A stretch of 64,000 nucleotides of DNA from Geosiphon pyriformis uo1 (Eukaryota > Fungi > Glomeromycota). The stretch is from positions 1 through 64,000 of the forward strand of contig JAAOMT010000334.1 in the NCBI GenBank assembly GCA_016748015.1, given 5' to 3'. A model generated the notes under the pieces. The model was not told the DNA's origin. It ran no database searches and saw only the letters and a list, made by a program, of their open reading frames with translations. The position numbers were made by a program, and so were the translations under genes. This document shows, piece by piece, positions 2,840 to 62,461 of this stretch (the first letter of the stretch is position 1; each line of letters begins with the position of its first letter).

Positions 2840-5005
2840 AAGTGCAGGGTGCTTGACTTTCTTGGATTTCTGTGGTGTGTATAAAGTCTTAGAGATATCC
2901 CAAGGGCGAAGAAGGAAGCATTTAATTTCCCTTAAGTAAAAAGCACACCGATGACCGTGATAACTTCTCCAAGTTCTCCAGCATTTGGTTTACCCACAAC
3001 TGCATCAATACACTATATATTAGATTTAATGACTTAAATATAATTATTTATAATAGAATTAATCATCTTTTCTTTAAGGACAGAAGAATATGTATCATAT
3101 TTGGGATCCATAGCAGATCTGCAGGAGATTGCGGGATCTGGAAAGTCGCAACTTGCTCAAAATAATAAAGGTGCTTATGTGGAATATTCATTGCATAGAT
3201 ATAGGCTTTTCAGCTTAAAGATTTAAAGAAGTATCTGATTAGAATGAAAGCCCCAAAAAAGAAACTCGTAATAAAACTTAGTGAACACTTGAATTCTGAA
3301 CACCTTAAGTTTCTTGAAGATTTCACTGTTATCATGCTCATACTTCTTTGCCACAAAGTTGAGAATATCCTTAAGGTCTTTTTGTGTCTTAACTTTGTTA
3401 TCACCGAAGTGCTTCAGATTATTTTCATAAGATGGCCTACTAACCTCACACACTAATAACTCCTGATTGAGATGATTTTGTAAAGAGAAAATTGCATCTG
3501 TTCACTGCCTAGGCCTCTGGTGTATGTTAGATTCAACCTCTTAATTATGCCAAATTGAAGATGTCTTTAGGCCAATTTCACGTCATTTTATTTGATAATT
3601 TTCTTGGAAGAGATTCTTCAACATTGGAAAGACTGCTAGTGCAATGTGTGTATTCTCACTCATATTTTTGTCTAAAAGCAGGTTTGGATTTTGAGTCCAA
3701 AAATCTACACTATTAATTAAATAGCATTCATTTTAAGTATTTCTGTGTCTATAAACATAATTAGAGAATGCTTAGTTCCTACTTACAAGTTTAGATAGAG
3801 CTTATGAACATATCAAAGCTCATTTTGTAAAGGTGAAGTTGTTTTTAGTACATGTGCAAAGAACTAATGAAGTTCTTGATCAATATTCTCAAGAACATTA
3901 TTAATGAATTATGTTAACTATTAGCATACTAAAATTCAAAAAATAATTTTTTAAGATACTTTGTTATCCAAAACCATCAACCAAGTTTTAACTTCATTAT
4001 TTATCTTGACTATTTCTATGCTCACTGTACTACGTAGTGTTTTTTACACTTTTGGTAAAAATCAACTTTTGATTGAGTCAATTTCTTTTTTCTCACTTAA
4101 ATCAAGGATGTTGTAAAAGACAGCTCTGTTTAAATATAAGTATAATTAGTAAAAAATAATAATATCTAGCTTAAATACAAAATTTAGAATACTAACTCAT
4201 AATTATCCACTGCCTTCTGTTCAACCAACTTTCCTATAACATCAATTCCATCAAAGATTTAAAGGACATAATTCTATGGTCAATTAAATTTAAATATATG
4301 GTTTTTATTTTTTCAGAAAGCAAATCATTCATACTATTCTATTGACAAGATCATCATTTTCATTTGAGTTATTATTCTCATCTTTCAACGTCAAAATCTT
4401 GTATACTTGCTAAAATACACTTACTATGAACAGCAGTGCATTTTTTTATCAAAAATGCAATTTTCTTTTCCTTTGCATTAGTTTTATGGCTTTGAATAAC
4501 AGAGTCCCAAAAGGAAAATAGGCTGCTTTGGTTTAGCAGCTATATTTATTGATAAATAATCATGCTAGTTAATTTCTCCACCCATTTAAAAGCAAGGTAG
4601 ATGGCAATCACTTTAAAGAGAGAATAAAATTACTGCTTTTCACCCTCCTGAGATAGATAAAGATCTCTCTAAAAGGTTCTGCACCACTTATTAAAAAAAA
4701 CATAATAATCTTCAATATTGAATTATTTTATTGTGGCATTTCTTTAGCCTTGTTAAAATAACAGTTTATTCAAATACCATTAAGATCAATCTATTTATCT
4801 GAACAAAGTGGTATTGTGATAATTAAAGCCTCATTGGATCACAAAAAATGCAAATAGGACCATTTTTTAAAAGAGTTTTTCTTAAAATACTAGATAAAAA
4901 CTGTTATAAGTGCCAATAGAGAGTTATTAATACAGTTTTTTCTTTTGCAAAATAAGATTTTCTTCTTTGACACTTATTTTCTTTGCCAGAAAAGTTGTTA
5001 GTCAT
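2840..5005 (-). pseudogene. Multi-exon Crinkler-like pseudogene: header exons homologous to the 60080 gene, joined to a different PD-(D/E)XK-like C-terminal domain
   Basis: 5005-4440 matches exons 1-3 and their introns of the 60080 gene (MTNNFSG; YFKK..KWSYLHFL*SN; LFSFWDSVIQS). The C-terminal part reads REIGLKTSS...*TDAIFSLQ..QELLVCEVS...KDLKDILN..KVFRIQVF, then AYIYAMNIP..LYYFEQVATFQIP. Many stop codons. Confidence 0.75.
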
Positions 5006-5169
5006 AATTGTGTTGTTAATAAAGACTTTGGGATTAATAATTTCAAGATAGTGGATAAAATGCACGCTTAAAAAAATACATTCAAAAATAAAACAATCAA
5101 AAAAATACGTTCAAAAAAAAACACGTGAAAAAAAAACATGTGTAAAAACGTGAAAAAAACACATTCATG

Positions 5170-9818: not shown

Positions 9819-9820
<2 letters not shown>

Positions 9821-9855
<35 letters not shown>
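9821..9855. repeat. (TTA)n microsatellite
   Basis: Perfect trinucleotide run. Confidence 0.95.
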
Positions 9856-10692
9856 TAACCGATAAAATAATTTAAGATGCCAAGACTTGAATTAAATTCT
9901 AAACAAGCTTCAACTATTCACACATAGCAATTAACGAGTTCGAAGGAACTAATTTTAATCTTTCCCAATAACTAAATTGAAAATTTTCTTATCAAACATC
10001 CGAATTTTATATATAAGTTAAATCAGCCATGCAAAATTTTATATTGCTTATTTTTCAAAGAATATGTGTGTTGAAATTTTCAAGATCAATTTTCAGTTGC
10101 AATCAAGTTTCCCAAAAAATTCATAATTTAAAAAAATATTTTATAAAAATAGCGTCTAACTAAAAAGGAATTTTTTCAACCTCTGGTTCTTCAGTGAGAT
10201 CTCAATACCTACTCGATTTCTATAAATATATGTTGCTTTGTAGAGCTTTTAATCGTTTCGGAAACGTTCTTGGATCATTATCTAATAAAAATACATACCG
10301 GATGACAAACAAAAGATAATATTGTCCCTATTTACCTTTAATCCCAATAAATTTATCTCTGTATATACTGTATCTCCCCAAGTGAGAAATCCCAGTACTA
10401 GTTTTATTCGTGCCAAATTCTTGTTTAAAACAATCCCCATGTTTTATCTGAGGGTAAAAATCTTTTTCTTGTGCCTCTGTAAAATATTCAAACCCTGTTA
10501 AAATACCAAAAACTAAAGAATGATCATCTAATAGTGATCATCAATTTTCCTTTCGATTGAAAAATCTCCGATTTTATTATACTTGTATTGATTTCATAAT
10601 ATCCGGCGAATTTGTCGATAACAAAATATTCGAGTTAATATCTTTTATAGCGTTGAATAAAAAAGGCACATTCAAAAATATTTTTCAAAATA

Positions 10693-12221
10693 ATGGTCCT
10701 ATTCACGGTTCGACATATAAAACAAGTGGTTCGTTTTGAACATGTTCTTTGGAATAGCGTCTTCCTTTTTGGTTTATTTAGTATTCTCTGTATTTGGGTG
10801 CTCTTTGCAAAGAAATGGAATGAAAATGACGTATATTTTAAAATTCTAGACTCAAATCTTCATAGACACAGAGAGTTTAATTTATTTTATGAGAGGATAG
10901 AAAATATTTCATTTCAGCATGCTAACTTGTACAGTAAAAGATATTTCCAATTGAATCAAAAAGATAACAAAAATAGAAATAATTTTGGAAAAAAGAGAAA
11001 CTCTAACTCTTTGGCAAATGAGGCTTTTATAGATTGGTTTAATCGTCAACCACCACGCTATATCCCAAAAATTTTACGACAGACTTCTTCACAAGAATGG
11101 ATTTTCTTGGCACAAATGGCTCGCTTAGCTAATACGGCGTATTGTTCGCGGAAAAATAATGTTGGCTCGGTCATGAAGGATCCTAAAATAAGAGGTAGAT
11201 AAAGAATTTTGATTTTCAGCAAGACTAATTTCCTTTAAATATTATAAAAAGAGAGTTGAAATATTGTAACTTGCTCTTTGATTTAAATGTAAAATTTTTA
11301 TTAATTCTATTTGATACCTTAAGCCCATGTTTTTGTCCCTCCATTTTCTAAGGACATTCTTGGCTATTTCAGAGGACAAACCTATACGCCAGAAGAATGG
11401 AGAAAGCGCAAGGTGCGATTAACACCTTTTGAATTTGGCCCTCTGATACCTAATCGTAAGCAAATAGCTTCTGTTGAAAAAAGTTGGAATGATGATGTGA
11501 ATGTAATGATGTCAGGCCTTCTTCAAAAAGTATTGCTTTTTTTGACTCCTGAGCAAAATAATATTATACTGATTGGTCATGGTGTCGGTGGAGGTAAAAG
11601 TTTTTTGTAATTCGAAATTGACCTTAGTAAGCGTTTTGATTGGTCGATCATTAGATTCCTAAAAACGATCCTTTGATTTTTCGTTAGTTTACGCAGTTCT
11701 AGCATTATTGGCTTTAAAAAAAATCTTTGCAAGTCAACATGGTTGGTTTGAGGAGGTAAAAATATCTGCAGTAACATTTGGGGAACCTCGTTTTGGTGCA
11801 ATCAATTTCGCTCGATACCTCGCTCAAACTGAATCCAAAATTTTCCGAGTCACCCACGCAAATGATTATGTGGTTCGTGAACAACTTTCTAAAACTGGCT
11901 TTCTAAAGTTTGAGCATCACCACAGCGAGTTTTGGATTACTTATGATTGTGAATGTTCAGAAGCTCTGGATCCTAACCGCCCATGGGTTAATTTCAATTT
12001 GTATGAGTGTCCTTCCTATGGAGATCATCCGGTAATTTATTTCTTGGAATAAAGTAAATATGTAGTATCATTCATTTTTTTTCCCGCTACTGACTATATT
12101 TTAGGATTGCAGTGCTAGTCAGATAGGAGATGATAAATCTTATATTGAAGCACATTTTGGTCCATATTTCGGGATCACAATGGGAGACTGCATTACAAAT
12201 ATGGGGGAACTTTTACATTAA
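10693..12221 (+). CDS. Class-3 lipase-like protein A (about 410 aa) with nucleophile Ser replaced by Gly; exons 10693-11194, 11324-11593, 11688-12031, 12105-12221
   Basis: GT-AG joins give an open frame with ANTAYC, YFRG, IGHGVGGVYAVL, VTFGEPRFG, RVTHANDYV, HHHSEFWI and HFGPYFG. N-terminal hydrophobic segment and KR sites precede the domain. Confidence 0.9.
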
Positions 12222-15128
12222 AATTAAAATTTCTTGTAATTTAATATAGTCATGATATTATATAATTTAAATCATTTTGGTAGAGAACAAAGTTTCATCG
12301 AAATTTATTCTTTTTGAAGGTGAAAACTTTTAAACTATTTTTTTTATTGAATTTCAAGATCTTATAAGGAGGCAATTTTTTTATCGAATTTCAGTTAGAA
12401 AATGTTACAGTCAAATCGCTCTAATATCAACTTTGTGAGACCAAATGCTGTCGTTGATATATAAAGAGTTGGATTAAGATAGAGTTAAGGATATTTTAAT
12501 TGACTTTAAAGAATGATATAAATTTAAAGTATTAATGATTAATTAATATTACACAACTTTTATATAGAAAAAATAATTTATATACAATAAATAAATTCTT
12601 TAAAATACATTTAACATTTGAATTTTAAAAATTGATATTTTGAAAATATAATTTCTTTATATTTCAAATTATTATTGGAGTTCAAATTTTGATTAATTTT
12701 AAAGTTCAGAATGAAAAACAATTTAAATATTATTTCAGCTAAAATATCTTGGCAATGATTCGCAAACTAAAGTAAAAATCATAATTTGTATCAAAAATAT
12801 ATAAAGTTTACAGAGAAAATAACAAACAAAATTAATCTATATATATTCTCTCATCAAAACAACATTATTTCTTTTGTTTAAAATATATAAAAAATGGCTA
12901 AATCTCATCACTTTGTACATTTTAAACTGTATATTTACCACAAATAATTACAAATATTGCAATATTGTTTTTTCATAAATAAATAAAAGTTTGATATTTC
13001 TTATTATATTTATTACTATTGTAATTATCTAAAATCATTGTAATTATATAATACAGATTTGTTTTTTGTATTAAAGATGACCAATAAAATTTTATGAAAT
13101 AATAATACTAGATAAAAAAAATAAAAGTAAGCTTAATAATATTCAATATTATTTAAATAAAAAAATTTCATATTAAAATATATATAATAATTTAAATTAG
13201 ATTGATATCAATATTGATAAAAGATCATATATTAGTTTATTTGTATCAAAAAATTTATTATTAAAGAGGTTGATAATAAAGAAGTGTAACTGCATAAACA
13301 AATAAAAATTTTAATGAATTTTTTGATCTAGATGGTATTTTTATTTGCTAATCAATTTATTATTTTATGAATGATCTTTTAAAATCAATAGATTTTTGTT
13401 AGAATTAATAATCCAGGAAGCTTGGTTTTTTGAAATTATTTCAATTTCATTGTATAAGAAGTCATTAATCTCAAAATAAAGCTAGATTTATAAAAAGAAG
13501 TAAATAATTGATTCCATTCATGATCAAATATTCAAACCAAATTATTTTGACTTCAGGTATCTACTTAAATTCAAACCATTAAGCAAATTTCATTGATGTG
13601 TTGTAATTGAATTTCGAAACTTTTAATAATATTCAAGGCTGAATTCCAAAATACATATTGAATCTGTGAAAATATTATGGTTGGATTTATGGCCACATTA
13701 TGGAGAATTTATTATTGAGATTACGTTAAATAGTTGAACTGTCCAAAGATTTCAAATTTAATTTTTAAGAAAAAGGGTAGAATTTATTATTTGAACGAGT
13801 AAATCTATAATTCGTTGTGTATCGGAGGATTCGGGATATTTCTTACAATCAGGTAAATTATTTTTAGTATTTCCTTTTAATAGCACATAGAAAAAAATCG
13901 AACTTAGAACATTATCCAATTTTAGTTTTGTCCTGTTAGCCATAAAATTAATTGGCATGTATAATTATTCACAATACTAGAGATAAGGTAATCACAGTGA
14001 ATCTAGATTTTAACGATACAATACATCACCTCCTCAAGGGTTTCAAAAATTGCACTATAGAGCAAAAGTGAAAAATCCAAAAATTTTAATTCAAAAGATT
14101 AGGATGAGAAGAATAATTGTTTTGTCCAAGGGTTGGGAATAAAGTTTAAAACTAGCACAAAATGCAAAAAGAATATATACATTAAAAATTCGTAAATAAC
14201 AAACATACTTTCATTTTCATTGATCATCCTGTAAGAAACGTTAAAAATAGAAGGCTCATTTTTAAAAGTTTTTCATAATTATGGAGCTCTAAACCCTTTT
14301 CGTAGGTTATGCCTAAATAAATATCGTAAAGGAAGAGAAATGAACGAAATTCAATAGATTAGTCATCTCTTATGATCAAAAACTATTATCCATCTTTACT
14401 TATTTGCTAGATCGACGAAACATGCTTCCCCTTCAATTATTAGAGGAAAAATAGTTGTCTCCAAGAGCAATTTTCATCATGACAAATCTAGTTGATATCA
14501 CTTTTGGTGATCATTTTTCTGCCGATACGGAAACCTAAAGCTAATAAAATGAAAATCATCATCCAATTTCATAATACTTGTAAATCTGATCTTGGGAAGC
14601 CCGATTTTCAAACAAAAAGGTTCGGATTAAACAGGATATTTTGATAGAAAGGATATCCATAAATATGGTTAGCCTAAATTTACATGTTGGCGAATTTGTA
14701 TTTGATTTTCAAAAAGTTAATTGATTCTGCATAAAGTCACTCTGGGATTAAAATGCACGTTACTATAAGATTTTTCGTATGATTGGATCTTGATCTCAAT
14801 ATGTCAAAGAGGGTTTTGTTTTACTCATCGTCAGATTCTTCTCATCTATTCTATATTTAGAAAAATTTTAGACGGGAAAGCTGATGAGGTAATATTCGCA
14901 CGAAATCTTTGAAGCTATTTTCTAATTAAATAAACATTGGAAACATCTAATATCAATTAATGATAGTATATTTAAAACAATGTAGATAGACTTCCGAACT
15001 TTTATTGCTCCCTACATAAAACAAGGGTAGCGTTTTTCCAACAGAAATTGCCAGAGAAGCGTAATTTTCTCTATCTTTTGATTTCCTATTATTCACCGTT
15101 AAAAAGTACTTTATCTCATATAAAAAAA

Positions 15129-16304
15129 ATGTCGAGATCAATTGTTGAAATAGAAAATGGACCGACAATTTATACGCCATTACTTCCAAAAGGTCTCACT
15201 CGTTTCAGCACATCTTCAAATGTGACTCGAAACATAATAGTACTTGTTTCTTCACTAGTTGTGTTGAACATCGCAGCATGGTTTGGAGCAGCGGTTGCAT
15301 TTCAAGATTATCCCTCGCTTATGGGTACCGCTGCATTAGCCTACACACTCGGTTTACGTCATGCAGTTGATGCAGACCATTTGGCAGCAATCGATAATGT
15401 CACTCGTAAATTACTTCACTCAGGAAAACAACCAATATCAGTCGGACTCTATTTTTCGCTCGGACACTCAACTATTGTTATCTGTACTTCTGCAGCAATT
15501 GCCGCTACAGCAACCGCAGTTAAGGATAAATTGGATGAGTTCCAAGCAATCGGTGGTTTAATAGGTGCAATAGTATCAGCAACGTTCTTATTTGTGATAG
15601 GAATCATGAATTTGATCGTGTTCATATCAGTATTCCGTTCTTTCAAAAGAATGAAACAAACCGGATCTTTTGAAGAAGAAAGTATCGATGAAATTATGAA
15701 TAATTCTGGAATGCTTGGTAGATTTTTTGCACCCATGTTTCGATTCATCGATTCAAGTTGGAAAATGTATCCGCTTGGAGTTTTGTTTGGATTCGGTTTT
15801 GACACGAGTACCGCAGTTGGCTTATTGGGAATTGCGGCGTTTCAAGCCAATCAAGGGTTACCCATTTGGCTAATCATGATTTTTCCTATGTTGTTTACCG
15901 CTGGAATGGCATTGATTGATACGGCTGATGGAATTTTAATGCTAGGAACTTATACCTGGGCATACATCAATCCTATTCGAAAACTTTATTACAATCTTGT
16001 CATCACTCTATTGTCGGTATTGGTTGCATTTATTGTTGGTGGAATCGAATTCTTGAATATTATTGGCGAAAAACTACAACTTGAGGGTCCATTTTGGGAT
16101 TTCTTTTCAGGATTAGGTAAAAATTTTGGGACCATTGGATATTTGATTATTGGGTTGTTTGTTGGCACTTTTCTCTTGGCGAAAATTTTCTATCAATTTT
16201 CCGGCCTTGAAGATTTGGAGCATAAGTTCGATACTCCTGTTGAGGAAGATACTACAAATACGCATAAAATATATGCTGAAACAGATGATGGGATATCGGG
16301 CTAG
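15129..16304 (+). CDS. High-affinity nickel/cobalt permease, NiCoT (HoxN/NixA/Nic1) family, 391 aa, intronless
   Basis: Family signatures RHAVDADH, FSLGHSTIV, GFDTST and DTADG, plus several hydrophobic segments. First ATG is at 15129; the ORF-track start at 15048 is a TTG. Confidence 0.95.
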   Translation: MSRSIVEIENGPTIYTPLLPKGLTRFSTSSNVTRNIIVLVSSLVVLNIAAWFGAAVAFQDYPSLMGTAALAYTLGLRHAVDADHLAAIDNVTRKLLHSGKQPISVGLYFSLGHSTIVICTSAAIAATATAVKDKLDEFQAIGGLIGAIVSATFLFVIGIMNLIVFISVFRSFKRMKQTGSFEEESIDEIMNNSGMLGRFFAPMFRFIDSSWKMYPLGVLFGFGFDTSTAVGLLGIAAFQANQGLPIWLIMIFPMLFTAGMALIDTADGILMLGTYTWAYINPIRKLYYNLVITLLSVLVAFIVGGIEFLNIIGEKLQLEGPFWDFFSGLGKNFGTIGYLIIGLFVGTFLLAKIFYQFSGLEDLEHKFDTPVEEDTTNTHKIYAETDDGISG

Positions 16305-18533: not shown

Positions 18534-20152
18534 TCAAGTTAAATATGGGACTTCATCATCATTCGGTGCCATAATATATCCAAAATATGGACCCCAATGT
18601 GCGCTCGATTCTTCAGGAATATTTCGAGAGAACCTATTAATGCAATCCTAAAAAAAAAGTATATTTTCGAAAATAGGAATAGGAAGTTCTATTCACTAAA
18701 AAATAAATCAGACACCTTACCGGATGTTCACCTTCAAATCGCATGCCCTGACACACATATACAGTCTCGGAAATCTTTTTTGGATCTATATCAACACAAT
18801 CACAGTTAGACTTTCGAGGAATCCAAAATTCCATCATCTCATGTGCATGATCTCTAAAAAATAATGGGACATAATCGTCCGCATAAGTTACACGCCAAAC
18901 CTCTAGCCTTTTGTTAACGAATCGGGCGAATGCTTGATTTCCAATACGTGGTTCGCCGAATGTTACCACGAAAATCCTTAAGCGTGGCTTCCTTATACGA
19001 AGAGCCAGAGCTGAAAACACGGCAAAAACTGTGGGGGTTGAAAAGGAGGTATTTAAGTTGATAATTCACTTTTTAAATAATTTCTTTGCATTTTAGAGCA
19101 TATTTATTTGATAATCTAGATAATTAAAATTTCTAAAAATATAAATACATACCAGCACCTTCACCATGCCCAGTAAAGGCAAAGAAATGTCTCTTATAAA
19201 TATTAGCAACCCAAAATCCTAAACTTTCTAAAATCTTTTCTTTCACTTTTGCAAACCTTTTATGATAAAATTCATTATTAACTAATAGTGGTTCATCCGA
19301 GATTCCATCTGGGTATAAAATTAATTCTCTTGTTTGGGCGAGGCTTAACATTGTAGCATGGTCCAATGAACGACCTCGAAACGTAACAATTATAAATGGT
19401 CTTGACATAAAGGCTGGTTTTAATGGGTCTTGAACCCCATCGATTATTCCTGAAAATAAAGTTTTCCTTTTTTTCAGAAAATTTCAAAGATCACAGGATT
19501 AAATCCGAAACTTTGATGCTTTTTTAATTTTAAACCCACCCCAAACCTCAGGCATAATTAGAGATCTTCTTCGATTTTCTCTATAAGGCAATTGTGCATA
19601 CCGTGCCATTTCCGACAAAAATTGAATTGAATCTTCATGCGTTAACAGATAAGTTTTTGGTTCTGCAGGCTTAAATATGAGGTTCGTGACACTATGCCAA
19701 TAACCAGCAATTAGTCGCCATCCTCTTTTAATTTTCCCGATTAAAGGATCTCTATTATTTTTTTCATTCATTCTTTTTGTGAAATGAGTTTTTTGAGAAG
19801 TGATATTGTTTTTGGAAAGTGTATGTAAGGACGAATTATAATCACTGGATAGAGTAATTACTCGTGTTGAGGATGATAAATGTGATTTGGCACCTGGATA
19901 GAATTCTTGGAGACTTATCAATGGCGAATAATTAGAGTAATTTTTTTTTGATTTGTTAATGAGATTTTCTGTCAATGATAGTAATCTGGACTCTGGTTGT
20001 GATTTAAAAAAATCTTGTGATAAGGTTGATGAAATTTTGATAATTAAGCAAATATATAATATGGTGGTCACGATTGCCAAAAAAAATTTTATAGTTTGGT
20101 TCTCAGAACTTCTAAATAAGTGTTGAAACTTTAATGAGAATATTTGACCCAT
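18534..20152 (-). CDS. Class-3 lipase-like protein B (about 443 aa) with nucleophile Ser replaced by Gly; exons 20152-19540, 19449-19153, 19028-18721, 18647-18534
   Basis: Spliced open frame with ARYAQLPY, TFRG, TGHGEGAVFAV, VTFGEPRIGN, RVTYADDYVP, EFWI and HWGPYFG. Intron positions and phases match protein A. Confidence 0.9.
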
Positions 20153-25234: not shown

Positions 25235-25269
25235 ACTAATTCTTTTCCATCTACCAAATGAAAACCATT

Positions 25270-27738
25270 ATGCCGAAGCAAGGTGCTGTTCTGGATAGAA
25301 ATTTCTAAAAAAACATCGAAAATGTGGCGCCGGAAATCGAGGTATGCGTTTATTTGATGCATCACGAGGCACCATTCCGTTTTGCTTCGATTTATTAATT
25401 GAATTGGCACCTCATTTCATTGCTTGCCTAATGAAGGAACTACTGTGAAGACGAGCAAGAACTCGTAAGTGTGCCAAACATTAGAATAAGCAATTACAGA
25501 ACAGTTATTGATTAGTGTACTTGACGGTGCAATGTACAGGAGATTCTGGATGAAACTGTTCTCCCAGCGACACGAACGAAACGAAAATCTCGGCGAAGCT
25601 GACAAAGACGGCGAATACGACGAGGACGAAGATGTATATTTTCTAATTAAATTCTGAATTTTTTCAAATTATATTTAATCCCATTATTTCATGTTGGTTT
25701 GCCACCTGTCGAATAATTATGATGAATTTATCTCTTATTTCACGTTTTAGGAAGAGCAACAAGAAGATGAAGATCCTGTCATAAGTGGGGTTGTTACTGG
25801 TCACACAATTTGCTCTTCTACTGATAAAGTAAGTCTTCTCGATAGAGCTATGAAATTGTACTTTGATTCATGGAATGGCAATTTTAATCATTTTAATATA
25901 CGTGCAAAAGCCAGCTCAAGCAGACAATACACTTCTAACGTGGGAGCTTGATTCGTCTATGCCAAGTTGGCTAACCAAGCTTGCTCAGAGTCATTTCTCT
26001 CTCATATCCAGTGTAAATCAGTGAGAAGCAATGACAAAGTAAGCACTAATTGTTCACTTGCTCTCTGTATCTGTTCCTGGTGGACTTTATTGTAACTCTC
26101 TATTCCTATAACAGAGCTTTGTATTGGAAGATCGTCGATGGATCAAACCCTGCCGTGATCTCCGAGTTTTCACCAGAGGAGTTTGAAGAATTAAATGCCA
26201 TGTCTGCCTCCATATTCAAACGTGGGGGCTCGGAAAAAGAAAACTTGGAGCCATCTGCGGAAAGATGCCTCCAAATACTTGACAAAGTAAAATGATGACA
26301 TGAAAGAACCTCTCAATCTTGATAATATCTACTTTTCTCCAGCTTGACTGGAAGCAATTGAAATTTTTTGGTAACCTTGTCAAGATTAAAGGGATTCAAG
26401 GAGCAGTACAAGAGGTTCGGAAGTTATCGAAGGGTTTTGAAAAGAAATTTGATCATGATCAAGGTTTGTTTTAAGATGAAATAGTGATCTACAAGAGGAA
26501 GACTGTCTAGAGGATGATGTCGGCTATATTTTTGAATTGCTCCGCTATGCGTAAGTTAATTTTATCAGCGCATTATGTGCTCTTATTGATATGCAGAACT
26601 TTAGATTAATATTTTTCATTGCCACTTTGATAGATACGAGTGGATCAAGAAATCGATTCCTCAGCGTCATAACTCTGAGCGGGATGTAGATGTATTTGTC
26701 AAAACTCCCATCTTCTCTTGCTTGGATAGTGTTGCGGACCAACACTTGTGAGTGCTATTTCCCTCATTGTGTTTATCGATCTTGTAATTGATACTTATAT
26801 TTTATTTATTTTTTTGACCTGATTAGTGGGGAGATGGTCTCACGGGAATCCCAAAATCGCCGAGAAAGTTCTTTAGATTCCCCAGATAATGCTGAAGGAT
26901 AACATTTGGATTGGATGTTCACGGTATGTTCAATACTCAGAATTCTTTTATTTTCTGTGACATCCTGGTTGTTAAAAGAATTTCTTTGGCAGTGTCATGA
27001 TCTTTCAAATGAGTCTTGGGTCAAGAATTTTCCATGTGTGAAGTCGCAGGATCCAAACTCGAAAACAAACTAAAGATTTTGTCAGACACGCTCAGAGTTC
27101 AAAAAACCATGTGAGATATGCACAAGACTTTAATCAAGGATGTTTACACGGCTGAAAATGGAGCAGTCTCAAAATCAGTACTGAATACCTTCACGAAACT
27201 TTTGCTGCCAAGATTTGTTTCTTCCTATTTTTTATCCGCACAATCCTTGTTGTTTACATCGGTGCCGGATTTTACGCATCGATTCAACGGTCGGAATTCA
27301 ATATTCCTGCTACCTATGACCAACTTGGGTATATTGTCAAAATTGTACGTGAAATAACATTTCGTGGTTTTGTGATATACAGAAAATATTCGTTCTACAA
27401 TATCAGCGTTTAAGGCAATTAATGCAAGAGCGGAGGGAGAAAAATTTGAACCAGGAAGAATACAAATAATCAAATGTCCGCTATAATTTGGCACGCAGAG
27501 AAAAAAACGCATTGCTAGGAAAGTAAGTTTATTATGTCTCATGTATATTGTAATGAATGCATCGAAAACGTTCTTAATTGTCTTTTACGAATTTTCCCAC
27601 GCTATCAACGAAAACAGTATCGAAGCCGGGCCTATCCGTAGATCTAGAGAATCCTTTTCTCTAAACAAGTTTGCAGGTGGAGTTGGGCACGCATTATTAG
27701 TACTACGTATTCTTGTAGGGAAGGAAATAGCTAGGTAG
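25270..27738 (+). pseudogene. Multi-exon Crinkler-like / REase-fold pseudogene (third C-terminal type)
   Basis: Coding-like GC with GT-AG structure. Fragments SGEMVSRESQNRRE...HLDWMF and QEFSMCEVAGSK..KILSDTLRVQKTM*DMHK. Early in-frame TAA (25306) and further stops/frameshifts. Confidence 0.6.
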
Positions 27739-38195: not shown

Positions 38196-38215
38196 NNNNN
38201 NNNNNNNNNNNNNNN
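38196..38215. other. Assembly gap (20 N)
   Basis: Run of N in the sequence. Confidence 1.
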
Positions 38216-43809: not shown

Positions 43810-44545
43810 TTATTATGCATTTCTTTTTTAATTCCAAGTTCTTTAAAACAGTTCACAGAGAATTACTAAATTGATCAACATAGTTTTCGGTAAAGAATTT
43901 CTCACCAGATTTTCAATAGGATTTAGATTCGGACTACATGACCATCAGTCAATAACTTTGGGTCACGTTTTCTGCAAGAAACGCCTTGGCTACTCAACTT
44001 GTACCCTTGAGATCCGTTATCATGTTGAAATCGCCACTTATTTCCAAGTAGAAATATTTGTACGAATCTTCTAGCCTTTGAAGAATTGATGATTTTCCTT
44101 GTAACAATGATCAAATGTGTTTGGGAACAGTTCAAATGCTGTCTCATCCGAAAATAAATTTTTTTCCAGTTATCATTCAAGATAAAATTTGGCCCATTGA
44201 ACACCTTCTACTTTTGAACTTAAACGGGCTTATTAATTTGTAGGTTTTTCATATGTCCAAGGTGCTTTTAAATGTCTGCCAATTGCGGGCGATATAGAAT
44301 ATCTACTCCCCTCTGTACCTAGTTTAATAGCAGAGACAAAGAATAATTTTTATAAACATATTGTCCATGTATGTACCATAATTTTCATACAATGACATTC
44401 CCTTTTTTTCCGTTGTGTAGTACAGCAGGAGGACAGATTCATTTCTCATGTGATTTATAAGCAAAGCTGCAAATTTAATTCCGCTTTTGAAATAAAATCT
44501 TTTATTTGATTGGGTGAAAAATGAAAAATTTTATATGAGCCTGTT
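43810..44545 (-). mobile_element. Degraded Tc1/IS630-type transposon of the same family as 30187-31245
   Basis: WRFQHDN and WSCSPNLNPIENL motifs. The 5' non-coding region (catataaaa..tttca; tttgcagctttg; atgaatctgt) is shared with the copy near 30200. Confidence 0.8.
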
Positions 44546-51567: not shown

Positions 51568-51639
<72 letters not shown>

Positions 51640-52446: not shown

Positions 52447-53929
52447 TCAAAACTTACCACAATAACCCATTATGATCCCGAAATATGGACCAAAGTGATT
52501 AATTGTACTTGAGTCTGTAATTGATTGTCCAGAATTACATTCCTAAAATTATTTTCCATATAAATGTAATAATAATAATAATAATATAAGGTTTAATTAC
52601 CCTCATAAAAAATTTAAAAAAAAGGACAATTTATTTTCTGCACTAACCGTATTTTCTATAGCTTGATCATTACCAGGAATCCAAAACTTTTCCTGAATAA
52701 ATTCTTGCACTCTAATTAACTTTTTTTCTTCATTTTCTTTGAATCGTCCACAATCCCATATAATTTCATTAGAAAATATTGTATTTTGAGAGCAATCACA
52801 ATCATTTGGTCCAATCCATATTTCACTTTCATGATGTTTCATTATTGAGTTCTCATTTTCAATTGGAGGAAAATGTGGGAAGTAATCATTTTGATGAGTT
52901 ATTCTTGTGACCTTTACTAGTTCATTCATCATTCTAGCAAACATTATATTTCCAGTTCTTGGTTGACCAAAAGTAAGAATTGAAATTTCAATTGATTCGT
53001 TTAACAGATGGATTGGTGATATAAATACGCGTAAAAGATTCATTATTGCGTATGATAGGCCTGCTATCGCGGCATAAGCTGGGTTTTTTTTTCCGATTTA
53101 AAAAGAAAAGAGACTTAGAATTAGCAAAATAAATATATAATACTCTAACTCTTCATTATTTGAACTAACCACCACCAACACCATGTCCACAGAAAATTAT
53201 CTTTTTATATCCCGTACGCATAAACAGAAAATTCATTTTGTTTAAAATAGGTCTCATCATAATTGAAACATCAATAAACCATTCTTGATCCACTTTTACT
53301 AGTTCGTTTTTCTTCATTCCTTCCGTACTAAATGTTACAAGCTGGTTTTTTCTATCTTGCCACTGTGTTTTTGTGAAATGGGGACCTTTAAAGAATGCAA
53401 TGATTGATTTTTCATTTTTTTCCACTATCATATCAGCTATTAAATTCGTATAAACAAGTAGACAGTGAAAAAATTTTAAACGAGGTTACTTTATTTCAAA
53501 AAATTCCTGAAATTAAAATTGATTGAAAAATAGTTAATTTCACAAAATACCCTTGATTTTGGTCCCTTGTTTTACCCGTTCCCCAATTTGATTGTAAGGT
53601 AAGCAATAAGGAATATTAGAAGACTCAGCTATCAATTTTAATCGTTGGTATTCCTGGGAGCTGTTAAAGCTTAATACTCTTTTCTTTGGGTAGCCTTCTT
53701 CATTATTATCAACTGATCTTTTAAAAAAAAATTTAATGCTATCATTTTCAAATGATTTCACTGAAAGTGAAAATTGAGGGATTTCTTGAATTTCATTATA
53801 AATTTTTTGATTTCTATTAGTTAAAATATGCTGTGAAAAAGAATATATGTATTCTAAAGAGTTGAAATAATAAAATATTTTCGTTAGAAAAATAATTTTA
53901 AATATGAATATCAAAAAGAGCTGTTGCAT
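52447..53929 (-). CDS. Class-3 lipase-like protein C (about 390 aa) with nucleophile Ser replaced by Gly; exons 53929-53551, 53436-53170, 53078-52648, 52542-52447
   Basis: Spliced frame with SNIPYC, FFKG, CGHGVGGAYAAI, LTFGQPRTGN, RITHQNDYFP, HHESEIWI and HFGPYFG. Intron positions and phases match proteins A and B. Confidence 0.9.
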
Positions 53930-56900
53930 TTTTAGTGTTATCTGTATATTCCTAAATCTACTTGAAAAGATTACCCTCCGATATCTTGAAAATGTATGCT
54001 ATGTTATTTAAGTGGGAAAAAACCTACTCACAAGGCAACGTTTTCCTAGGATTCGCTAATGGGCAGTGATGATTTGATCAAATAAAAGTATTTAAAAAAA
54101 ATTAGAAATTGAAAAAGAAATCCAACCTCGGTATGAACTTTCAATTTATTTGGTCAAATCCTGTTTTTATTACATATATTAGGTTTATAATAATCATTAT
54201 TTACTTTTTAGCCACATTGGGTTCCGGAATTTTTGTTGAATAATATTTATAATCAATAGGGTTGGATTAAACCGGGTAAATCCAATTCGTTAGAGACGTC
54301 GGATCTTTCATGTTTGTGTTTTTGATTCAGGTTAATGATTCGACCTACTGTATATTTATTATTTTATGCGTTTTTTTGTACTGGTCACTTTCTATGTTTA
54401 TACCTAAAGATAATTTAACACAAATGATTATTGAAATAAAAACAAGTAACAATACGAGTATTTTATCCATCATAATTTTTGAAAGTAAAAGGTGAAGTAA
54501 CAAGCAATCTTTTAACCTTGAATAGTTTATTTGAAAAAGAGAGAAAATTTTGTTCATTACATGTTTTACTTTTAAGTTGAACTAAAATTTATAATTTTTA
54601 TAATATAAATTTTCTTTTAATTATAATAGAAAAAAGGGAAAATAAAAGAATAATGATTCATTATTAAAAAATAAATTTTGGCATCATTTACCCAAAAATT
54701 ATTTACAAAAAAGCATCAAAGAGAAACATACAAGTTTTTTATTAATAAAACATTAATTAAAATAATTTTAATATTATTTTAATTAAAATGCAATATTAAA
54801 CTTATTATTGGAAATTTTTATATTACAATTTTTTCATTATTATATTAAAAATTACATAATAATAAAATAATAATCAATCATTTACAATTATAAAAAATAA
54901 CTACTTTTAATAACTATCTTAAATGGTGATTTTATGCATCATATTAATGATCTTAAAATAAATTTAACCTTTCGAATTTTCATCTAAAAAATTTTGTTTT
55001 GATAATTAAACGTTGAAAAAAATTATATTTGTGCTTTCACTATTACAGTCTATTGAAAATACACATTTGGTTGACCACCTGATCCTGAGTTGATCGAATA
55101 ACATTCAATTCGATATTTTCACAAACAATGTCAAATATGCTGTTCCACCAAGTCGGGTGTGCAAGCTGCGTCATGAGCACGGAAAATACATATTAAGGAT
55201 CTATAAAGACGTTTAAATATAGTTTTGACAAGCATGTAACAAAAGTCAGTTCTGTGAGTTGAATTTTGAAAATGATTTGATGCGACGCTGTAATATGAAC
55301 AGCTGAAAAAGCAACTCAATATGGTTATCAATTGCTTTAACTCCTTTTGAGTCTTATGCATTACATAATAAAATTTCCAATTCAAACAATAATTTTTATA
55401 ACATATTCTTATCTTTCCCAATTCAGATGTTCCAAAAAGGACCAAAAAGTGGTTGCTGTATTCTTAATTGCAGACAGAACATCTGAAGCCTAAGTAATCG
55501 ATTGGTGTGTTGGTTCAATACCTTCCGGGAGGTTTTATAATAAGATTTTTTGCAAAAGCAGCTGGTAAGGCTGTTTTAAGGGAATTTTGGCTGCTGGAAT
55601 GTTAGATGGCAATGGAATTTGCCATAACATCTGGTACTTGCAATTGATTTTATTCTCAAAAAGCTTATTATAGCTAGGTAAAAGAAAATGCAAAAGGAAG
55701 GAGGAAAAGGCACAAGTTAGCCAACGCTTTAAACAGGATACCTTCAATATATATTTTTTCCTTCTGTTCTTAAAGAACTTATGTCAAAAAGCGGCTAATA
55801 TTTGGGTTACGTCGGCTTTTTCACACTGGTGCATGATTGGTGTGAAACAATAGCTGCCAAAAAGCTCGGACTTAATAAAACTTATGAGTGAAAACAGGCA
55901 GTACGATTATGACGTGAATGTACTCCCTATCAGAAAGTGTTCTTTAGATGTCGATATCAGCAAAGAATTGCATTTAAGCATTTTCCATTACTGGTAGAAA
56001 TGTTCGCCTGACAATTTTTACATTTCAAGCTTTAAAGAATGTGTAACATGAGAAATAGCAAATAATTAATGACTAGCATATGATTTGAAAAACAATAATT
56101 TTGCTTTTAAATAATTTCCATTAAAGAAATGAAATTTAACAATTTAAAACCTATAGATAATATTTTTAATTTATAAGAAAAATTTATATTGATAGATAAT
56201 TTTCTTATTTACTTGTTTTATTTATTTCATTTTTATTTAATTATAATTCAAGAATTTTCACTTAATTCATTCATAATAATTAATATTTATTATGAGTTAA
56301 GTGAATCCAAACTACCAATTTGTTCAATGCCCTACCCAATCTTAGATCTACTACACTCTCAACTCCAATTTTATTTTATTGACCAAAAAATTCTGCAGCT
56401 TTTAAATTGAAATAAATAAATTAATATTTAATAAGAAAACAAAAACATAGTGGTAACTAATCATTCTTAATTTTTAAATTTTAATTTCTTTTTATAATAA
56501 AACATCTTATAATCAATATACTAGATAAAAATTAGAGGTACAGCAATTTTTGTATAATTTTTGCTTGAAAAATATGTTTATGTTTTTTCTGTGGTGAAAT
56601 CTTCTGATTCAAAAATTATAGTTGAATTTTTATTAGCTATTTGGATAATTTAATTTGAGTAATTTTTGAATTAAAAAAGAATTTTTTCCAAAGAGGCTTT
56701 TTTTGTTCTTACACATTTGACCTAGATCAAAATTGCTTAGATAATCATAAATTTCTTTTTTAATCAAAAATTCAGGTTTAAAAACACTACATTATTAATA
56801 TATATAAATTATCATGACTATACTCTGCGGCCTTTTACTTTTAGCACACCATTTTGAGAAGCCTTTTATTTCTTTTATGGTTTTTTATTATGATCAACTA

Positions 56901-58110: not shown

Positions 58111-59351
58111 TGACTATAAAAAATTAAGCCTTTTATTCTTATAACGAAAAAACACATATTTGGTTCAACGTCGAACCCAAGAAAATTATCATTCAATGTT
58201 ACTAAAAACACTCAATCCAGAACATTTAAAACTCTTATCATAATGAATACTCTTTTATTTAATAAAATATACTAAAATATTGAATAATGCATTGCAAAAA
58301 CTTTAGTTTTAAAACAATATAAAAGAATTATTGGATTTTACTAATATTATTTCCACAACTTTATTGAAATTCAGAAGAAACAGTAATATGTTTTTATTTA
58401 TAAAAATACACATCTTAAAGGTGAAAGATGCATAAAATGTATTTATTTTTACAAAAATTTCATATAAAGCAAGTTTCAAAGTAAAAACCAACTGATCAAT
58501 CTTTCATTTAAGTTTGAAATCCTCAATTAATAAAAGTATTATTGTCATTACTTGAATTAGCCTTGAATTTGCTAATGGTTTTTTATCCATTTGTTTCTTT
58601 TGGCCATTTTATTTGCAATAAATCGTTTAAGAATTGAAAAATTAAAGAGGAAGAATGTTAAATCTGTCTATCAAAGTGAGAGAATATACCAAAATATAAA
58701 ATTTTCCAGGCAGACCAAACTTGCTTACAACTTGGATTCCGAATTAATTTTGTTAACAAAGCTTATTATCTCAATTTTCTTGCTAAAATTTAATAATAAG
58801 ATGAAAATTGAGTTAAAGAATAATTGATTTAAATCAATCATTGCAAAGCAATTATCTAACAAACAACTAAATAGAATATGTGAACATATTCTTTTACCAA
58901 TACAAATCTATTGAGAGTCTTATGTTTTGTTGTCTTTCTTCTCAAGTAATGCTTTCCAATGAGCTAGCCAACCTGTTATCAATGAAATTGCTAGTTAAAC
59001 AATGAAATTTGTGTTATGAACAAAAACATAAGTTAAAACACTTACCAAATAAAACTGGAAACATATCCTATTGCTTTATGGATATATTCAGAGTAGAAAT
59101 TAATATTTGTATAAATCAGTAAAAAGATAGCTGCAGATGTATCAAAGACGTTTGCCCTTTTTTTAGTGTTGCATCGTTAGTTGCCAAAAAAAATTTCGTA
59201 CACAATCGAAAATTAATCGGTCCATCCGGTCAGGTCCCGTCCAGGATCATCCAAAAGGATGATCCGAAAACAGAAGATTAGGCCATTAATTTTCATTAGA
59301 TTGCGTTTAAGACCTCCTTTGAACATTAGTGTTAATAGTTTGTCTATTGTA

Positions 59352-59428
59352 CAGTAGACACTAAAAGTAACGCCCACTTTTGTATAGTAATACATATAAA
59401 AATCGGACGTTACTTTCAGTGCCTATTG
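59352..59428. mobile_element. 77-bp MITE-like element with about 30-bp imperfect TIRs and TA flanks (Tc1/mariner-pogo type)
   Basis: TA|cagtagacactaaaagtaacgcccactttt ... aaaatcggacgttactttcagtgcctattg|TA; the arms are reverse complements with about 6 mismatches. Confidence 0.7.
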
Positions 59429-60079
59429 TACATATATATTGACGAAACTCAAGCTACTTTATTATTATATGTGCGCAACAAATATTGCAATTGTATCGGA
59501 ACATGATACAACAGCATATTTTTTATTCATCAAAGACACCGAAGAGATCTGCTTTACCGAAGCCAATAGCTATGGGCACCGTCGTTGGTTAATTTCACTT
59601 GAGTTATGTTGATTTTCCGATTAGTACCTCTTATATTAACAGAAATGTCTTGTAATAATTTTCAAAGATGAAAACTCGATAAATATCGCATCGCACTAAA
59701 ATTATATTGCTCTAAACAATGAACAACTTTGTAATGAAAAAATGGTATGTTCGAAATTCATAACTAATTCTTTTTGTGTCACGATCGTTTATAGTATGTC
59801 GCGTTCATTTTTTTGTGTTCATGATAAAAATATCACCAACGCTGAACGTTAATCTTTGTATTACTAAATAATAACCTATAGAATCATCTGGTTTGTCACA
59901 TGACTAAAATTACTGCGGGACCGACGATTAACATCCCCTGTCAACTATCTGGGGATAACATATCTAATCAATGATATCAAGTTTGAGCTTAAAATATTTG
60001 GTTATTAATCAAACATCTGACGTCCTCAGATCATTTGATATTGAACGTGCTATTCCAAAGTCTTAATAACAACAAAATT

Positions 60080-62461
60080 ATGGACAACTTTTCTGGTGAA
60101 AATAGTAAGTATCAAAGAAGAAAACCTTATTTGGCAAGAGAAATAACTGAACTTGTAACTCTTTATTCCTACTTTTGACAGTTTTTATCGAGTACTTTAA
60201 GAAAACCTCCTCTGAAAAATGGTCATATTGGCATTTCTTGCGATCCAACCAGGCTGAAATCATCACATTGCCACCTTTTTCAGATGAATGGACCGGTCTT
60301 GATGGTGCTTGGCAAAGACGTTTTTTTTACAAGGCTAAAGAGATGCCACAATGGGAGGATTTAAACTGGAAGGTTATTATATTTGTTTCTTTGGTTGGGT
60401 GGGGAAATTAATTAGCACAAATATTAATCATTATGTTTCAATAATTATAGCTTCCAGAAAATAGCCAGCTATATTCTTTTTGGGATCACATTATTCAGAG
60501 CCGCAAATTCGATGCAATTGATTCGAAAATTTTCAGCCTAGGAAAACGTAGCGTTTTTAATGAGGTAAGTAAATTAGGGCAGTAAAATGGTTCACATTAT
60601 TGTACTATTTTTAATATAAGGAAATAGGAAAAGGAAATAAGACAAGATTTCTTAACACAGAAAAAGGTACAAATATAAATTTTCTAAGCGTATTATTCTA
60701 AATTAAAACAGATTCTTTTAACCAATTTTTTTAATCATTGTTTGTTGATTTGCAGTTAAAGACAAATGTTGATGGGAAAAAGAAATCTCAAATATATGAT
60801 AACGAGTTGTTTTCAAGACATAATAAAGAAGAAATGGTATTTAATTATTAAATATTTCTTCTCTTAAGTCAAATTAGCCTGTTTTTATTATCAGTTTTTT
60901 AGACACCCAATTCTCCTCCGACAAGAAAATATTCTACTTGTTTACCACAATTTTCATTACCTTCATCACACCAAAATATTGGAAACATTTCTGATGATGA
61001 AGCAGACTTTGATTCAGCTACTTCAAGTATACAAGTTAACTGTCCTATCATTATTAATGATATAGTGGAGTTGCAATTAGGATCCTTGCCTTGTGAAAAA
61101 TCTCGATGGATCATAAACAATTTGGATATTTCTAAAAAATGGCATATATTTAAGGGGGAATCCTTGAAATTAGCAAAGGATAATGGTCTTTTTTTTGAAA
61201 GCCATGTTCAGCAGATATTGTATGTTTTAATCTTTTCATTTTGCAATTGGTTTATACTTTTACTTTTTTATTCATTTCCTTCTACTATTTTCAAACTCTT
61301 CTCTAACTTTATATTATAGATCTTTATCACATATTCTTTTATTAAAGCCCAAACAACATTGCCCTTTAATGGTCAAAATATTTAGTGCTGAATTATTGGA
61401 TACGATGCACAAGGATGTTATGCAAAGGCTTACTAAGTGCAAAACAGAGTTTAATGCTGAAGTTTTCTTAAAGATTATTCCTATTGTCAAGGTATATTGT
61501 TTTTTTTTTTGCCCTTATTTAATGTGAAAAAAAGAGAAAATTTAATTTTATCTCTTTTTTGTTACAGTGCCTGCAAAGAGAAGAAATTACAAGAAAAAAT
61601 GCAGTTTTAAAACTACAAATGCTTGCAACTGACTGTGCCTATGGAGAGTGCGCTATTTTACAGGCTATTGAAAACATGTAAGATTGGGCTAAACTGTTGA
61701 GAAAGAGAAGTCATTTAATAGTATTAACACATTTTAATTAGTATTCAAAGAGTACCGACAATAACATTAAAATCCCCTATTGGCGAAGTAGAATTATGTA
61801 CTGCTTACATAGATCCCGTTCTTAGCCCAATTTTTGGGGATCCTGATCGTGGTGTATTCTTGCGATGGTCCAATAAAGAGGCGCCGGAATCCAAGAATAG
61901 GAAGTCAACAGGGAGGGCCAAGCAACCGGATGCCATCATTAGTGACATTAATCAACTTTCTTGGGGCTCGAGCAGAGGACATGGCGAGGTAAAAGCGCAA
62001 GAAGAAATCAATAATCTCTACAGCCTATGCACTGATCTTGTCCGAGTGGCTGTGCTCAATAAAGATGCTATTGATTTTTTTAACATGAATTGTATTCTCG
62101 GATTTCAAGTCGTTGGTAAGGTTTTTAACATTAGTTTTTTTTTATCAAAAATCATACTAATAAGAGCTTAATAGGGCAACATATCACATTTTACCTCACC
62201 ACTCTTTTATATGATGGCATGTATGTTATGGTGGAGGTTGGTCTTCTTAATGTGCCGATGTCACTTGAGGAGCTTCCGGCTTTTCTTACAAGTCTTGACA
62301 CACTTCTCGTTGTCTCCAATGCATTTTGGACCAATTGTGCTATGTCCCGTCCTGCTGCAGAAATGGAGCCAAACAAGCGCAGCACACTTGCAACACCAAA
62401 TTTCAAAGAACTGGTTGGGAAAAGCCGTGATCGATATCATTCTTGTGAAATACGATTCTAA
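60080..62461 (+). CDS. Intact 10-exon Crinkler-like protein (about 569 aa): N-terminal header plus C-terminal PD-(D/E)XK restriction-endonuclease-like domain; exons 60080-60104, 60182-60372, 60451-60564, 60628-60666, 60756-60836, 60903-61219, 61320-61491, 61568-61677, 61742-62115, 62175-62461
   Basis: All joins are GT-AG and stop-free (1710 nt). C-terminal motifs IGEVELC..YIDP, KQPDAII, GHGEVK, DLVRV, GFQVVG, ITFY and DGMYVMVE. Confidence 0.8.

What the first reader, a model, noticed from the sequence alone, without database searches (positions are those of the whole stretch)
2840..62461. Same N-terminal header fused to different nuclease-fold C-termini: polymorphic-toxin / Crinkler-like domain swapping
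Seen in sequence: the minus-strand relic at 5005-4440 is homologous at DNA level, including the 5' flank and introns 1-2, to exons 1-3 (about 110 aa) of the intact gene at 60080. Examples: YFKKTSSEKWSYWHFLRSN vs YFKKNSFKKWSYLHFL*SN, and LYSFWDHIIQSRK vs LFSFWDSVIQSHK. After about exon 4 the two diverge. The intact gene ends in a PDAII...GEVK domain, the relic in a TDAIF...LLVCEVS...DLKDILN domain. A third type (LDWMF...CEVAGSK) lies at 25270-27738. Established: Crinkler/RHS-type eukaryotic effectors combine reusable header domains with variable REase or kinase toxin domains. Inference: an all-helical header that I cannot assign (no LFLAK motif) is being shuffled onto interchangeable DNase modules, making a candidate effector, conflict or self/non-self system.
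Basis: partly seen in the sequence, partly recalled or inferred. Interest (0 to 1): 0.8.

Follow-up and report, generated by a model that had tools for sequence, protein, structure and literature searches.

The report
Swappable header on fungal nuclease genes
In this soil fungus and its relatives one small, unnamed protein head has been swapped between several different tails predicted to cut DNA, likely forming Crinkler-like weapons for conflict inside the fungus's own cells, and the spliced sequences seen for the intact copy here encode only the head.

Summary
The window is Geosiphon pyriformis. Gene A (60080-62461, 10 exons) and the broken gene at 5005-~2840 share exons 1-3 and introns 1-2 (78% DNA over 341 nt). 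Similarity ends at the intron-3 donor. The shared ~90-aa header has no Pfam or PDB match, but it has 64 relatives in Glomeromycota and Endogonales. These lead into at least 8 C-terminal types, mostly with REase-like motifs, one an AAA-ATPase, one resembling CR-REase8. Header trees reject co-inheritance with the tail (AU p 1e-4 and 2e-3), and gene A's tail sits behind other headers elsewhere. That tail has conserved D413/E432/K434 and a model with weak but consistent restriction-endonuclease matches. There is no signal peptide; NLS-like linkers are enriched; copies decay by C>T. In two runs, exon 5 splices out of frame, giving a 154-aa header-only product. Best reading: a Crinkler/RHS-type modular nuclease family acting in the fungus's own nuclei, not a shown host effector. 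The principle is published; this header may or may not be among those already defined (paper not readable here).

The parts
60080..62461 (+). Gene A (G9A89_002584): header + low-complexity linker + helical domain + predicted REase domain. Exons 60080-60104, 60182-60372, 60451-60564, 60628-60666, 60756-60836, 60903-61219, 61320-61491, 61568-61677, 61742-62115, 62175-62461; open frame of 569 aa
   Evidence: 8 of 9 modelled introns seen as GT..AG joints in runs X2/X3
60080..60564 (+). Header of gene A (exons 1-3, about 110 aa; conserved core Y..W.Y..FL...R..I...PP....W..LDG.W..R)
   Evidence: 64 relatives at E<=0.001; column conservation; no Pfam or PDB sequence match
60837..61065 (+). Intron 5 as actually observed (229 nt). 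It uses the acceptor at 61065 instead of the in-frame one at 60902, shifts the frame and ends the ORF at 154 aa
   Evidence: joint in X3 (737-nt contig) and loose end in X2; translation and branch-point scan
61742..62461 (+). Predicted PD-(D/E)XK domain of gene A; D413 in 24 of 24, E432 in 21 of 22, K434 in 19 of 22 ungapped rows (27 aligned)
4423..5046 (-). Header of relic B (about 40-nt flank, exons 1-3, introns 1-2; intron 2 has a ~90-nt insertion and a non-GT donor; 5 stops in exon 2)
2840..4422 (-). Rest of relic B: short linker exons, middle exons with stops, and a broken REase-like tail (TDAIF..CEVS at about 3501-3440). No BLAST match to any header-bearing protein; weak register-correct profile matches to H-, A-, C- and D-type tails
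   Evidence: (hhalign E 0.0016-0.04)
1234..2347 (+). Truncated, internally deleted copy of gene A's 3' half plus 3' flank (matches 61385-62654 and 63414-63538); no header
25258..27500 (+). Broken C-type gene (SERDVD..GEMVS..LDWMF..CEVAGSK) with a different N-terminus; in three other species the same tail type carries gene A's header family
   Evidence: tblastn of P0044 E 6e-41, P0088 5e-27, P0050 1e-13; header HMM no hit
62462..63538 (+). 3' flank duplicated with the gene; shared end with the 1234-2347 copy at about 63538, next to a short hairpin

Best explanation
Gene A and the two broken genes belong to a family of spliced fungal genes in which a small N-terminal header has been recombined onto different tails predicted to be restriction-enzyme-fold nucleases, and these likely act as Crinkler/RHS-type conflict proteins inside the fungus's own nuclei rather than as secreted effectors. 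Steps: (1) shown - DNA-level exchange with introns retained joins a header (exons 1-3) to a different tail, here at or near intron 3; (2) shown - the exchange recurs in both directions across Glomeromycota and Endogonales; (3) predicted - the tail is a metal-dependent PD-(D/E)XK nuclease; (4) inferred - the basic linker imports it into nuclei and the header is a targeting or regulating interaction module, so each swap makes a new target/regulator-nuclease pairing; (5) inferred - the genes multiply by duplication and are then neutralised by the host through cytosine methylation and C>T decay, or, for gene A, by an out-of-frame splice that leaves only the header.
For: Break at intron 3. 21 of 65 header proteins are long enough to classify and fall into 9 BLAST components, 8 types once P0057 is joined to D on E 6e-7. 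Five types occur in two or more species, which argues against mis-joined gene models. In the header tree the AU test rejects one clade for A-type (p 1.2e-4) and C-type (p 0.002) carriers; P0047 (A-like tail) and P0050 (C tail) have headers identical at 47 of 57 columns. 0 of 32 close A-type homologs carry the header; pairs with 83-84% identical cores have unrelated N-termini. Catalytic residues conserved. Model of the 72%-identical homolog P0009: pLDDT 76.6, pTM 0.77, helix-3 strands-helix-strand core, best core matches DrdV, HsdR, BpuSI, TT1808 and 9y1l. The header also precedes an AAA-ATPase_like domain (P0081, E 2e-39) and a tail that by eye shares the motifs of RiCRN3's CR-REase8. Hydrophobic leader in 0 of 21; NLS-like motif in 15 of 21 linkers against 4.8 expected. 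C>T/G>A outnumber the reverse 69:9 in the copy and 50:14 in relic B, CpG-enriched in the copy (19/44 vs 50/311, p 1e-4). DNA run X1 lays 82 contigs, with 400 C>T/G>A places.
Against: No activity, toxicity, localisation or target was measured. No fold match reached E<=0.001 (best REase E 0.022) and VIA Z values are 6-8.8, which is middling; the model is of a homolog, and the full-length gene A model was poor (52.7). Tail type still shows some clustering on the header tree (12 changes, shuffled mean 14.1, as low in 23 of 500). In the tail tree one clade for header-bearing A-type proteins is not rejected (p 0.33), so direction and number of swaps are open. 44 of 65 header proteins were too short to classify, and many models are partial. 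The relic's header-tail link has no transcript or intact relative. The A-type tail is strongly conserved and roughly follows the species tree, which is not typical of a fast arms race. The whole genome was not available.
Confidence: 0.5

Rival explanations
1. The genes are the coding part or cargo of a mobile DNA element: the REase domain serves its own mobility, and the header is a swappable DNA- or chromatin-binding module.
For: About 1 kb of 3' flank is duplicated with the gene and ends beside a hairpin. Flanks are multi-copy in X1 and copies are C>T-decayed like silenced repeats. Near-identical tails occur in different families (Gigaspora P0006 with Acaulospora P0016, branches 0.03). CR proteins are linked to transposons and Helitrons in the literature (PMC5289972 section 11).
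Against: No terminal inverted repeats around 57.5-64 kb. No transposase, helicase or RT family among 18 window ORFs scanned. No canonical Helitron end by eye. Nine to ten introns, several kept in distant relatives. Only two copies could be compared for ends.
Confidence: 0.22
2. They are host-side defence nucleases against invasive DNA, viruses or endobacteria, diversified by header swapping.
For: Intracellular features. A conserved tail roughly tracking the species tree. The review notes non-secreted CR proteins proposed to target intracellular invasive DNA.
Against: Three of four family loci in this window are broken, and the fourth is spliced out of frame in both runs seen. This looks more like suppression than upkeep.
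Confidence: 0.12
3. They are true secreted or translocated Crinkler effectors aimed at a partner (the cyanobacterial symbiont, plants, competing fungi), with the header as a non-classical delivery part.
For: The header appears interchangeable with the Ubl/LFLAK header on a CR-REase8-like tail (by eye). RiCRN1 acts in plant nuclei (PMC6131194 passages). The review reports that CR headers need not be signal peptides.
Against: No hydrophobic leader and no LxL[FWY] motif in 21 of 21. The family is present in Geosiphon and in Endogonales with different partners. The observed transcripts lack an in-frame nuclease.
Confidence: 0.1
4. The chimeras are neutral by-products of ectopic recombination among decaying repeats, partly inflated by mis-joined automatic gene models.
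For: Many partial or short models (44 of 65); heavy decay in this window; no single contig bridges header and nuclease exons of gene A.
Against: Invariant catalytic aspartate and 60-84% core identity across orders. The same header-tail pairs recur in independent species. Overlapping spliced contigs tile exons 1-10.
Confidence: 0.06

Closest known systems
CR (Crinkler-RHS-type) proteins of Zhang et al. 2016 (PMC4857004; not held, known here only through PMC5289972 section 11, PMC6131194 and PMC11342252 passages)
   Same: N-terminal header + variable enzymatic C-terminus, mostly REase, sometimes NTPase+REase; the review states that besides Ubl there are various unrelated alpha-helical headers; repeat-like multi-copy genes; a header-bearing protein here has a tail resembling CR-REase8 by eye.
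   Different: This header matches no Pfam family, including the Crinkler Ubl family. I could not check whether it, or the A/B/C/D tails, are among that paper's named headers and REase clades. No kinase-coupled tail was seen in 21 long members.
Canonical CRN effectors (LFLAK-DWL/Ubl; RiCRN1-10 of Rhizophagus irregularis)
   Same: Same fungal group; recombination at the header/tail junction; REase tails with NLS motifs.
   Different: No LxLFLAK/LxLWKV-like motif by regex and no hydrophobic leader; no HVLxxP seen by eye; no evidence of delivery into a partner.
Selfish REase-fold elements: Tribolium Medea1 and Wolbachia CifB (PMC11342252 passages); AACRNL (PMC12957317, abstract and outline only); Podospora Spok and fission-yeast wtf (recalled, no call)
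   Same: Toxin-like enzymes that act within or between genomes of one species, multiply near mobile DNA and are countered by the host; wtf makes poison and antidote from alternative transcripts of one gene (recalled).
   Different: No drive, killing or antidote was shown here; no ATPase, DUB or kinase partner in gene A; no sequence link to these families was tested.
Bacterial polymorphic toxin systems
   Same: Constant N-terminus with exchangeable nuclease tips.
   Different: No secretion domain, immunity gene or orphan-tip cassette array seen; swapping is two-way (many headers by many tails) among intron-containing genes.

Membership tests
CR (Crinkler-RHS-type) proteins, broad sense | Discrete N-terminal header reused on several unrelated or distant enzymatic C-termini | tested here: met
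   8 tail types among 21 long header proteins plus relic B; AU tests
CR (Crinkler-RHS-type) proteins, broad sense | C-terminal REase (PD-(D/E)XK) fold with catalytic residues | tested here: met
   A-type only, moderate strength: conserved D/E/K, confident model of a 72%-identical homolog, REase matches at E 0.02-0.08 and Z 6-7.5. B, C and D types rest on motif register only
CR (Crinkler-RHS-type) proteins, broad sense | Header or tail belongs to one of the domain families defined by Zhang et al. 2016 | tested here: inconclusive
   Paper and profiles not held. By-eye motif match of P0076's tail to RiCRN3 (CR-Ubl1+CR-REase8) in PMC6131194 Table 1; not scored
CR (Crinkler-RHS-type) proteins, broad sense | Toxic or nucleic-acid-damaging activity | not testable with these tools
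   needs bench assay
Canonical CRN effectors | Ubl header with LxLFLAK-like motif (Pfam Crinkler) | tested here: not met
   0 of 21 by regex; no Crinkler Pfam hit for gene A or header members
Canonical CRN effectors | Secretion or translocation into a host cell | tested here: inconclusive
   no hydrophobic leader in 21 of 21 by a hydropathy scan; non-classical secretion not testable
Polymorphic toxin systems | Adjacent immunity gene and orphan toxin cassettes | tested here: inconclusive
   none recognised among 18 ORFs scanned; a headerless 3' copy exists at 1234-2347 but is decayed; an unknown antidote would not be recognised
DNA transposon / Helitron | Defined termini (TIR/TSD or Helitron ends) and a transposase or Rep-helicase | tested here: inconclusive
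   no TIR in 57.5-64 kb; one shared 3' end beside a hairpin; genome not held

The most novel reading that the evidence does not exclude
A kingdom-branch-wide, two-way library of headers and nucleases works as poison-antidote drivers between nuclei in the shared cytoplasm of these fungi, and a single gene makes both parts: the common out-of-frame splice yields a header-only antidote, while a rare or stage-specific in-frame splice yields the nuclease poison.
Probability: 0.1. Interest if true: 0.88.

Novelty: new variant of a known kind. Interest (0 to 1): 0.5.

Why it matters
A large share of genes in arbuscular mycorrhizal fungi have no known domain (45% in R. irregularis, bioRxiv 2021.03.30.436303 passage), and many are methylated like transposons. 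This work puts a defined, searchable header and several probable nuclease tails on part of that dark set. It also shows that Crinkler-like shuffling runs without the LFLAK header or a secretion signal. If these are nucleus-acting selfish nucleases, they give testable candidates for how nuclei compete or recognise non-self in coenocytic fungi. The splice result also warns that an annotated 'intact' member may not make its nuclease.

Tried and rejected
No whole genome held, so no genome-wide breakpoint map. Zhang et al. 2016 not held; its supplements, unseen, may already name this header. Pfam on gene A exons, gene A, the header alignment and 28 proteins: nothing but AAA-ATPase_like above cut-off. 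PDB sequence searches with the gene A family and header profiles: nothing under E 0.7. ESM Atlas: header only 0.79/0.77 unnamed Mucoromycota clusters, a lead at most; tail no usable named hit. Word search with relic B's tail: 0 of 46 candidates, so no intact B-type relative was found. No read data were obtained for the relic, so whether it has intact or transcribed paralogs is open. Full-length AlphaFold model poor and its Foldseek search empty. Header homodimer prediction: no verdict, score 0.00, alignment not used. Metagenome scan: 4 short loci (1.2-1.4 kb), too short to show headers or ends; viral contigs: 0 of 20 stretches. No RNA holder listed on record for gene A: X2 and X3 are taken as RNA from their spliced contigs. 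No contig covers 60903-61064 in X2/X3, but contigs drop rare forms, so the in-frame splice is not excluded. Earlier findings of the scan: none by place, sequence or words. Literature searches listed no paper describing this header; the library lacks most subscription papers. Rejected: full-length paralogy with uneven rates, because the tail is the slowly evolving part (61-69% protein identity to other orders) yet does not align between A and B while their headers and introns do. RIP rejected as the main cause of decay: CpG, not CpA, is the enriched context.
Full report
Source and gene model. The exon-2 peptide of the gene at 60080 matches at 100% a 574-aa protein that NCBI names G9A89_002584 of Geosiphon pyriformis. 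I model 10 exons with GT-AG introns and an open frame of 569 aa. The NCBI model differs by a 5-residue longer exon 10; spliced contigs support my junction. No whole genome was held.

Observation. The relic at 5034-4694(-) matches 60052-60388 at 77.7% (E 8e-72). Tested piece by piece against 200 shuffles, similarity is clear for the 40-nt flank with exon 1 and intron 1, exon 2, intron 2 and exon 3 (z 7.8-63). It is absent upstream (z -0.8) and after the intron-3 donor (z -0.1 and 0.9; z 2.3 for the last exons). Uneven rates cannot explain this, since gene A's tail is 61-69% identical to proteins of other fungal orders. The relic has 5 stops in exon 2 and more downstream. Its header and tail are co-oriented at gene-like spacing with spliceable exons between them, but no transcript or intact relative proves the link. 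The third gene (about 25258-27500) is broken and lacks the header.

The header is a family. phmmer with residues 1-112 against 1.84 billion representatives gave 64 proteins at E<=0.001. I looked up 30 of the 64: 23 Glomeromycota, 5 Endogonales, 2 unnamed; three are further Geosiphon genes. The domain lies at the N-terminus (start 1-71; one protein has a second copy), with invariant F-L and W and near-invariant Y, P, W, L, R. It has no Pfam or PDB sequence match.

It is shuffled both ways. Of 65 header proteins, 44 were dropped as too short. The 21 left fall into 9 BLAST components, or 8 types: A-like (4), D (7), C (3), AAA-ATPase (2; PF09820 E 2e-39 in P0081), H (2) and three singletons. Relic B is a ninth type. 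The C type is the tail of the window's third gene (E 6e-41): here it has another N-terminus, in three other species it has this header. In the header tree gene A is sister to relic B (80/76 among 22 rows, 98/78 among 66) beside D- and I-type carriers. One clade is rejected for A-type (p 1.2e-4) and C-type (p 0.002) carriers, and an A-like and a C-type protein have headers identical at 47 of 57 columns. Against a simple story: some clustering remains (12 changes, shuffled mean 14.1, 23 of 500 as low), and in the tail tree one clade for header-bearing A proteins is not rejected (p 0.33), so direction is unknown. Conversely, 0 of 32 close homologs of gene A's tail carry this header, and pairs with 83-84% identical cores have unrelated N-termini.

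The tail. In the A family D413 is kept in 24 of 24, E432 in 21 of 22 and K434 in 19 of 22 ungapped rows. The full-length model was poor (pLDDT 52.7). A model of P0009, 72% identical to residues 240-574, reached pLDDT 76.6 and pTM 0.77, with a helix, three strands, helix and further strands. Foldseek gave nothing at E<=0.001, but listed DrdV (E 0.022, probability 0.98), a putative restriction endonuclease domain (9y1l), HindIII and BpuSI. VIA-align gave two mitoribosomal chains (Z 8.8 and 8.7; that these have an inactive REase-like fold is recalled), HsdR 7.5 (rmsd 4.1, 129 aligned), DrdV 7.4 (4.1, 137), BpuSI 7.1 (4.4, 152) and TT1808 6.2, among many short helical-bundle hits. This is moderate support. 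Relic B's tail, read with X, aligns its D and E with those of A and D types, and its E with C and H types, at weak scores (E 0.0016-0.04).

Where it acts. None of 21 long members has a hydrophobic leader or LFLAK-like motif, and 15 of 21 linkers hold an NLS-like motif against 4.8 expected from shuffles. DNA run X1 lays 82 contigs on 59400-63000, 40 of them under 99% alike, with 185 C>T and 215 G>A places against at most 44 for any other change. The window's own relics show the same bias, CpG-enriched in the younger copy. This fits CG methylation of repeats and orphan genes as reported for R. irregularis (bioRxiv 2021.03.30.436303, passages). No TIRs or transposase were found.

An unexpected splice. 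Runs X2 and X3 (two studies; not on record as RNA) hold contigs identical to gene A at all but one base that skip its introns at GT..AG; DNA run X1 shows none of the GT..AG joints listed. Eight introns are as modelled. Exon 5, however, joins 61066 rather than 60903, in a 737-nt X3 contig and as a 12-nt loose end in X2. This ends the frame at 154 aa, header plus linker, with a separate 297-aa nuclease frame downstream. The in-frame acceptor is the only one of 10 without a branch-point-like motif, and homologs conserve residues upstream of the new acceptor, so the in-frame form is ancestral. The plain reading is a copy being silenced. The bold reading is a header-only antidote. Contigs cannot exclude a rare in-frame form.

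Comparison with what is known. The review PMC5289972 (passages and section 11) reports that Zhang et al. 2016 defined CR proteins as header plus toxin, with Ubl or various unrelated alpha-helical headers, REase or NTPase+REase tails, links to transposons, and some non-secreted members. That paper was not held. In PMC6131194 (passages and five rows of Table 1) RiCRN3 is CR-Ubl1+CR-REase8, and its tail shares motifs by eye with header protein P0076, which would tie this header into the CR network. PMC11342252 (passages) and PMC12957317 (abstract and outline) describe CR-related selfish elements. PMC11952901 (passages) does not mention crinklers. Seven searches listed nothing on this header.

Verdict. 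It works like a Crinkler/RHS-type modular nuclease family and is not a canonical CRN. The shuffling is shown, the nuclease fold is predicted with moderate support, and the conflict role in the fungus's own nuclei is inferred (0.5). New variant of a known kind; interest 0.5.

Noticed in passing
window 35538-40873: A 2658-nt stretch of an Argonaute gene (ArgoN, PAZ, Mid, Piwi at 37.1-42.8 kb, minus strand) is repeated at 100% identity next to a run of 20 N; probably an assembly artefact.
   Followed up: partly
window 59348-59432: Long hairpin (34-nt arms, about -35 kcal/mol) 650 nt upstream of gene A; a related contig is present in run X2. Could be a small palindromic element or an element end.
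   Followed up: partly
window 61320-61370 and 62174-62243: Runs X2 and X3 hold a deeper contig (depth 150 and 59) that matches gene A only in patches and has a different upstream sequence: probably another expressed A-family paralog.
   Followed up: no
window 61860-61870; L001, L002, L004: Three metagenomic homologs have an intron within FLRW/SNK that gene A lacks precisely, suggesting intron loss in the Geosiphon lineage.
   Followed up: no
window 60034-60057: The 5' end of the X2 spliced contig (60034), the start of homology with relic B (about 60038) and the start of a paralog contig in X1 (60057) nearly coincide.
   Followed up: no
proteins P0006/P0016 and P0008/P0015: A-type tails from different families or genera are almost identical (terminal branches 0-0.03): horizontal transfer or assembly contamination.
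   Followed up: no
window 10657-12052, 18637-20158, 52603-53998: Three class-3 lipase genes; also a NicO nickel transporter (14976-16304) and a kinase/Sel1 region (32789-34639).
   Followed up: no
window 30498-31063 and 43907-44363: Inverted pair of about 74-75% identical decayed repeats of unknown kind.
   Followed up: no
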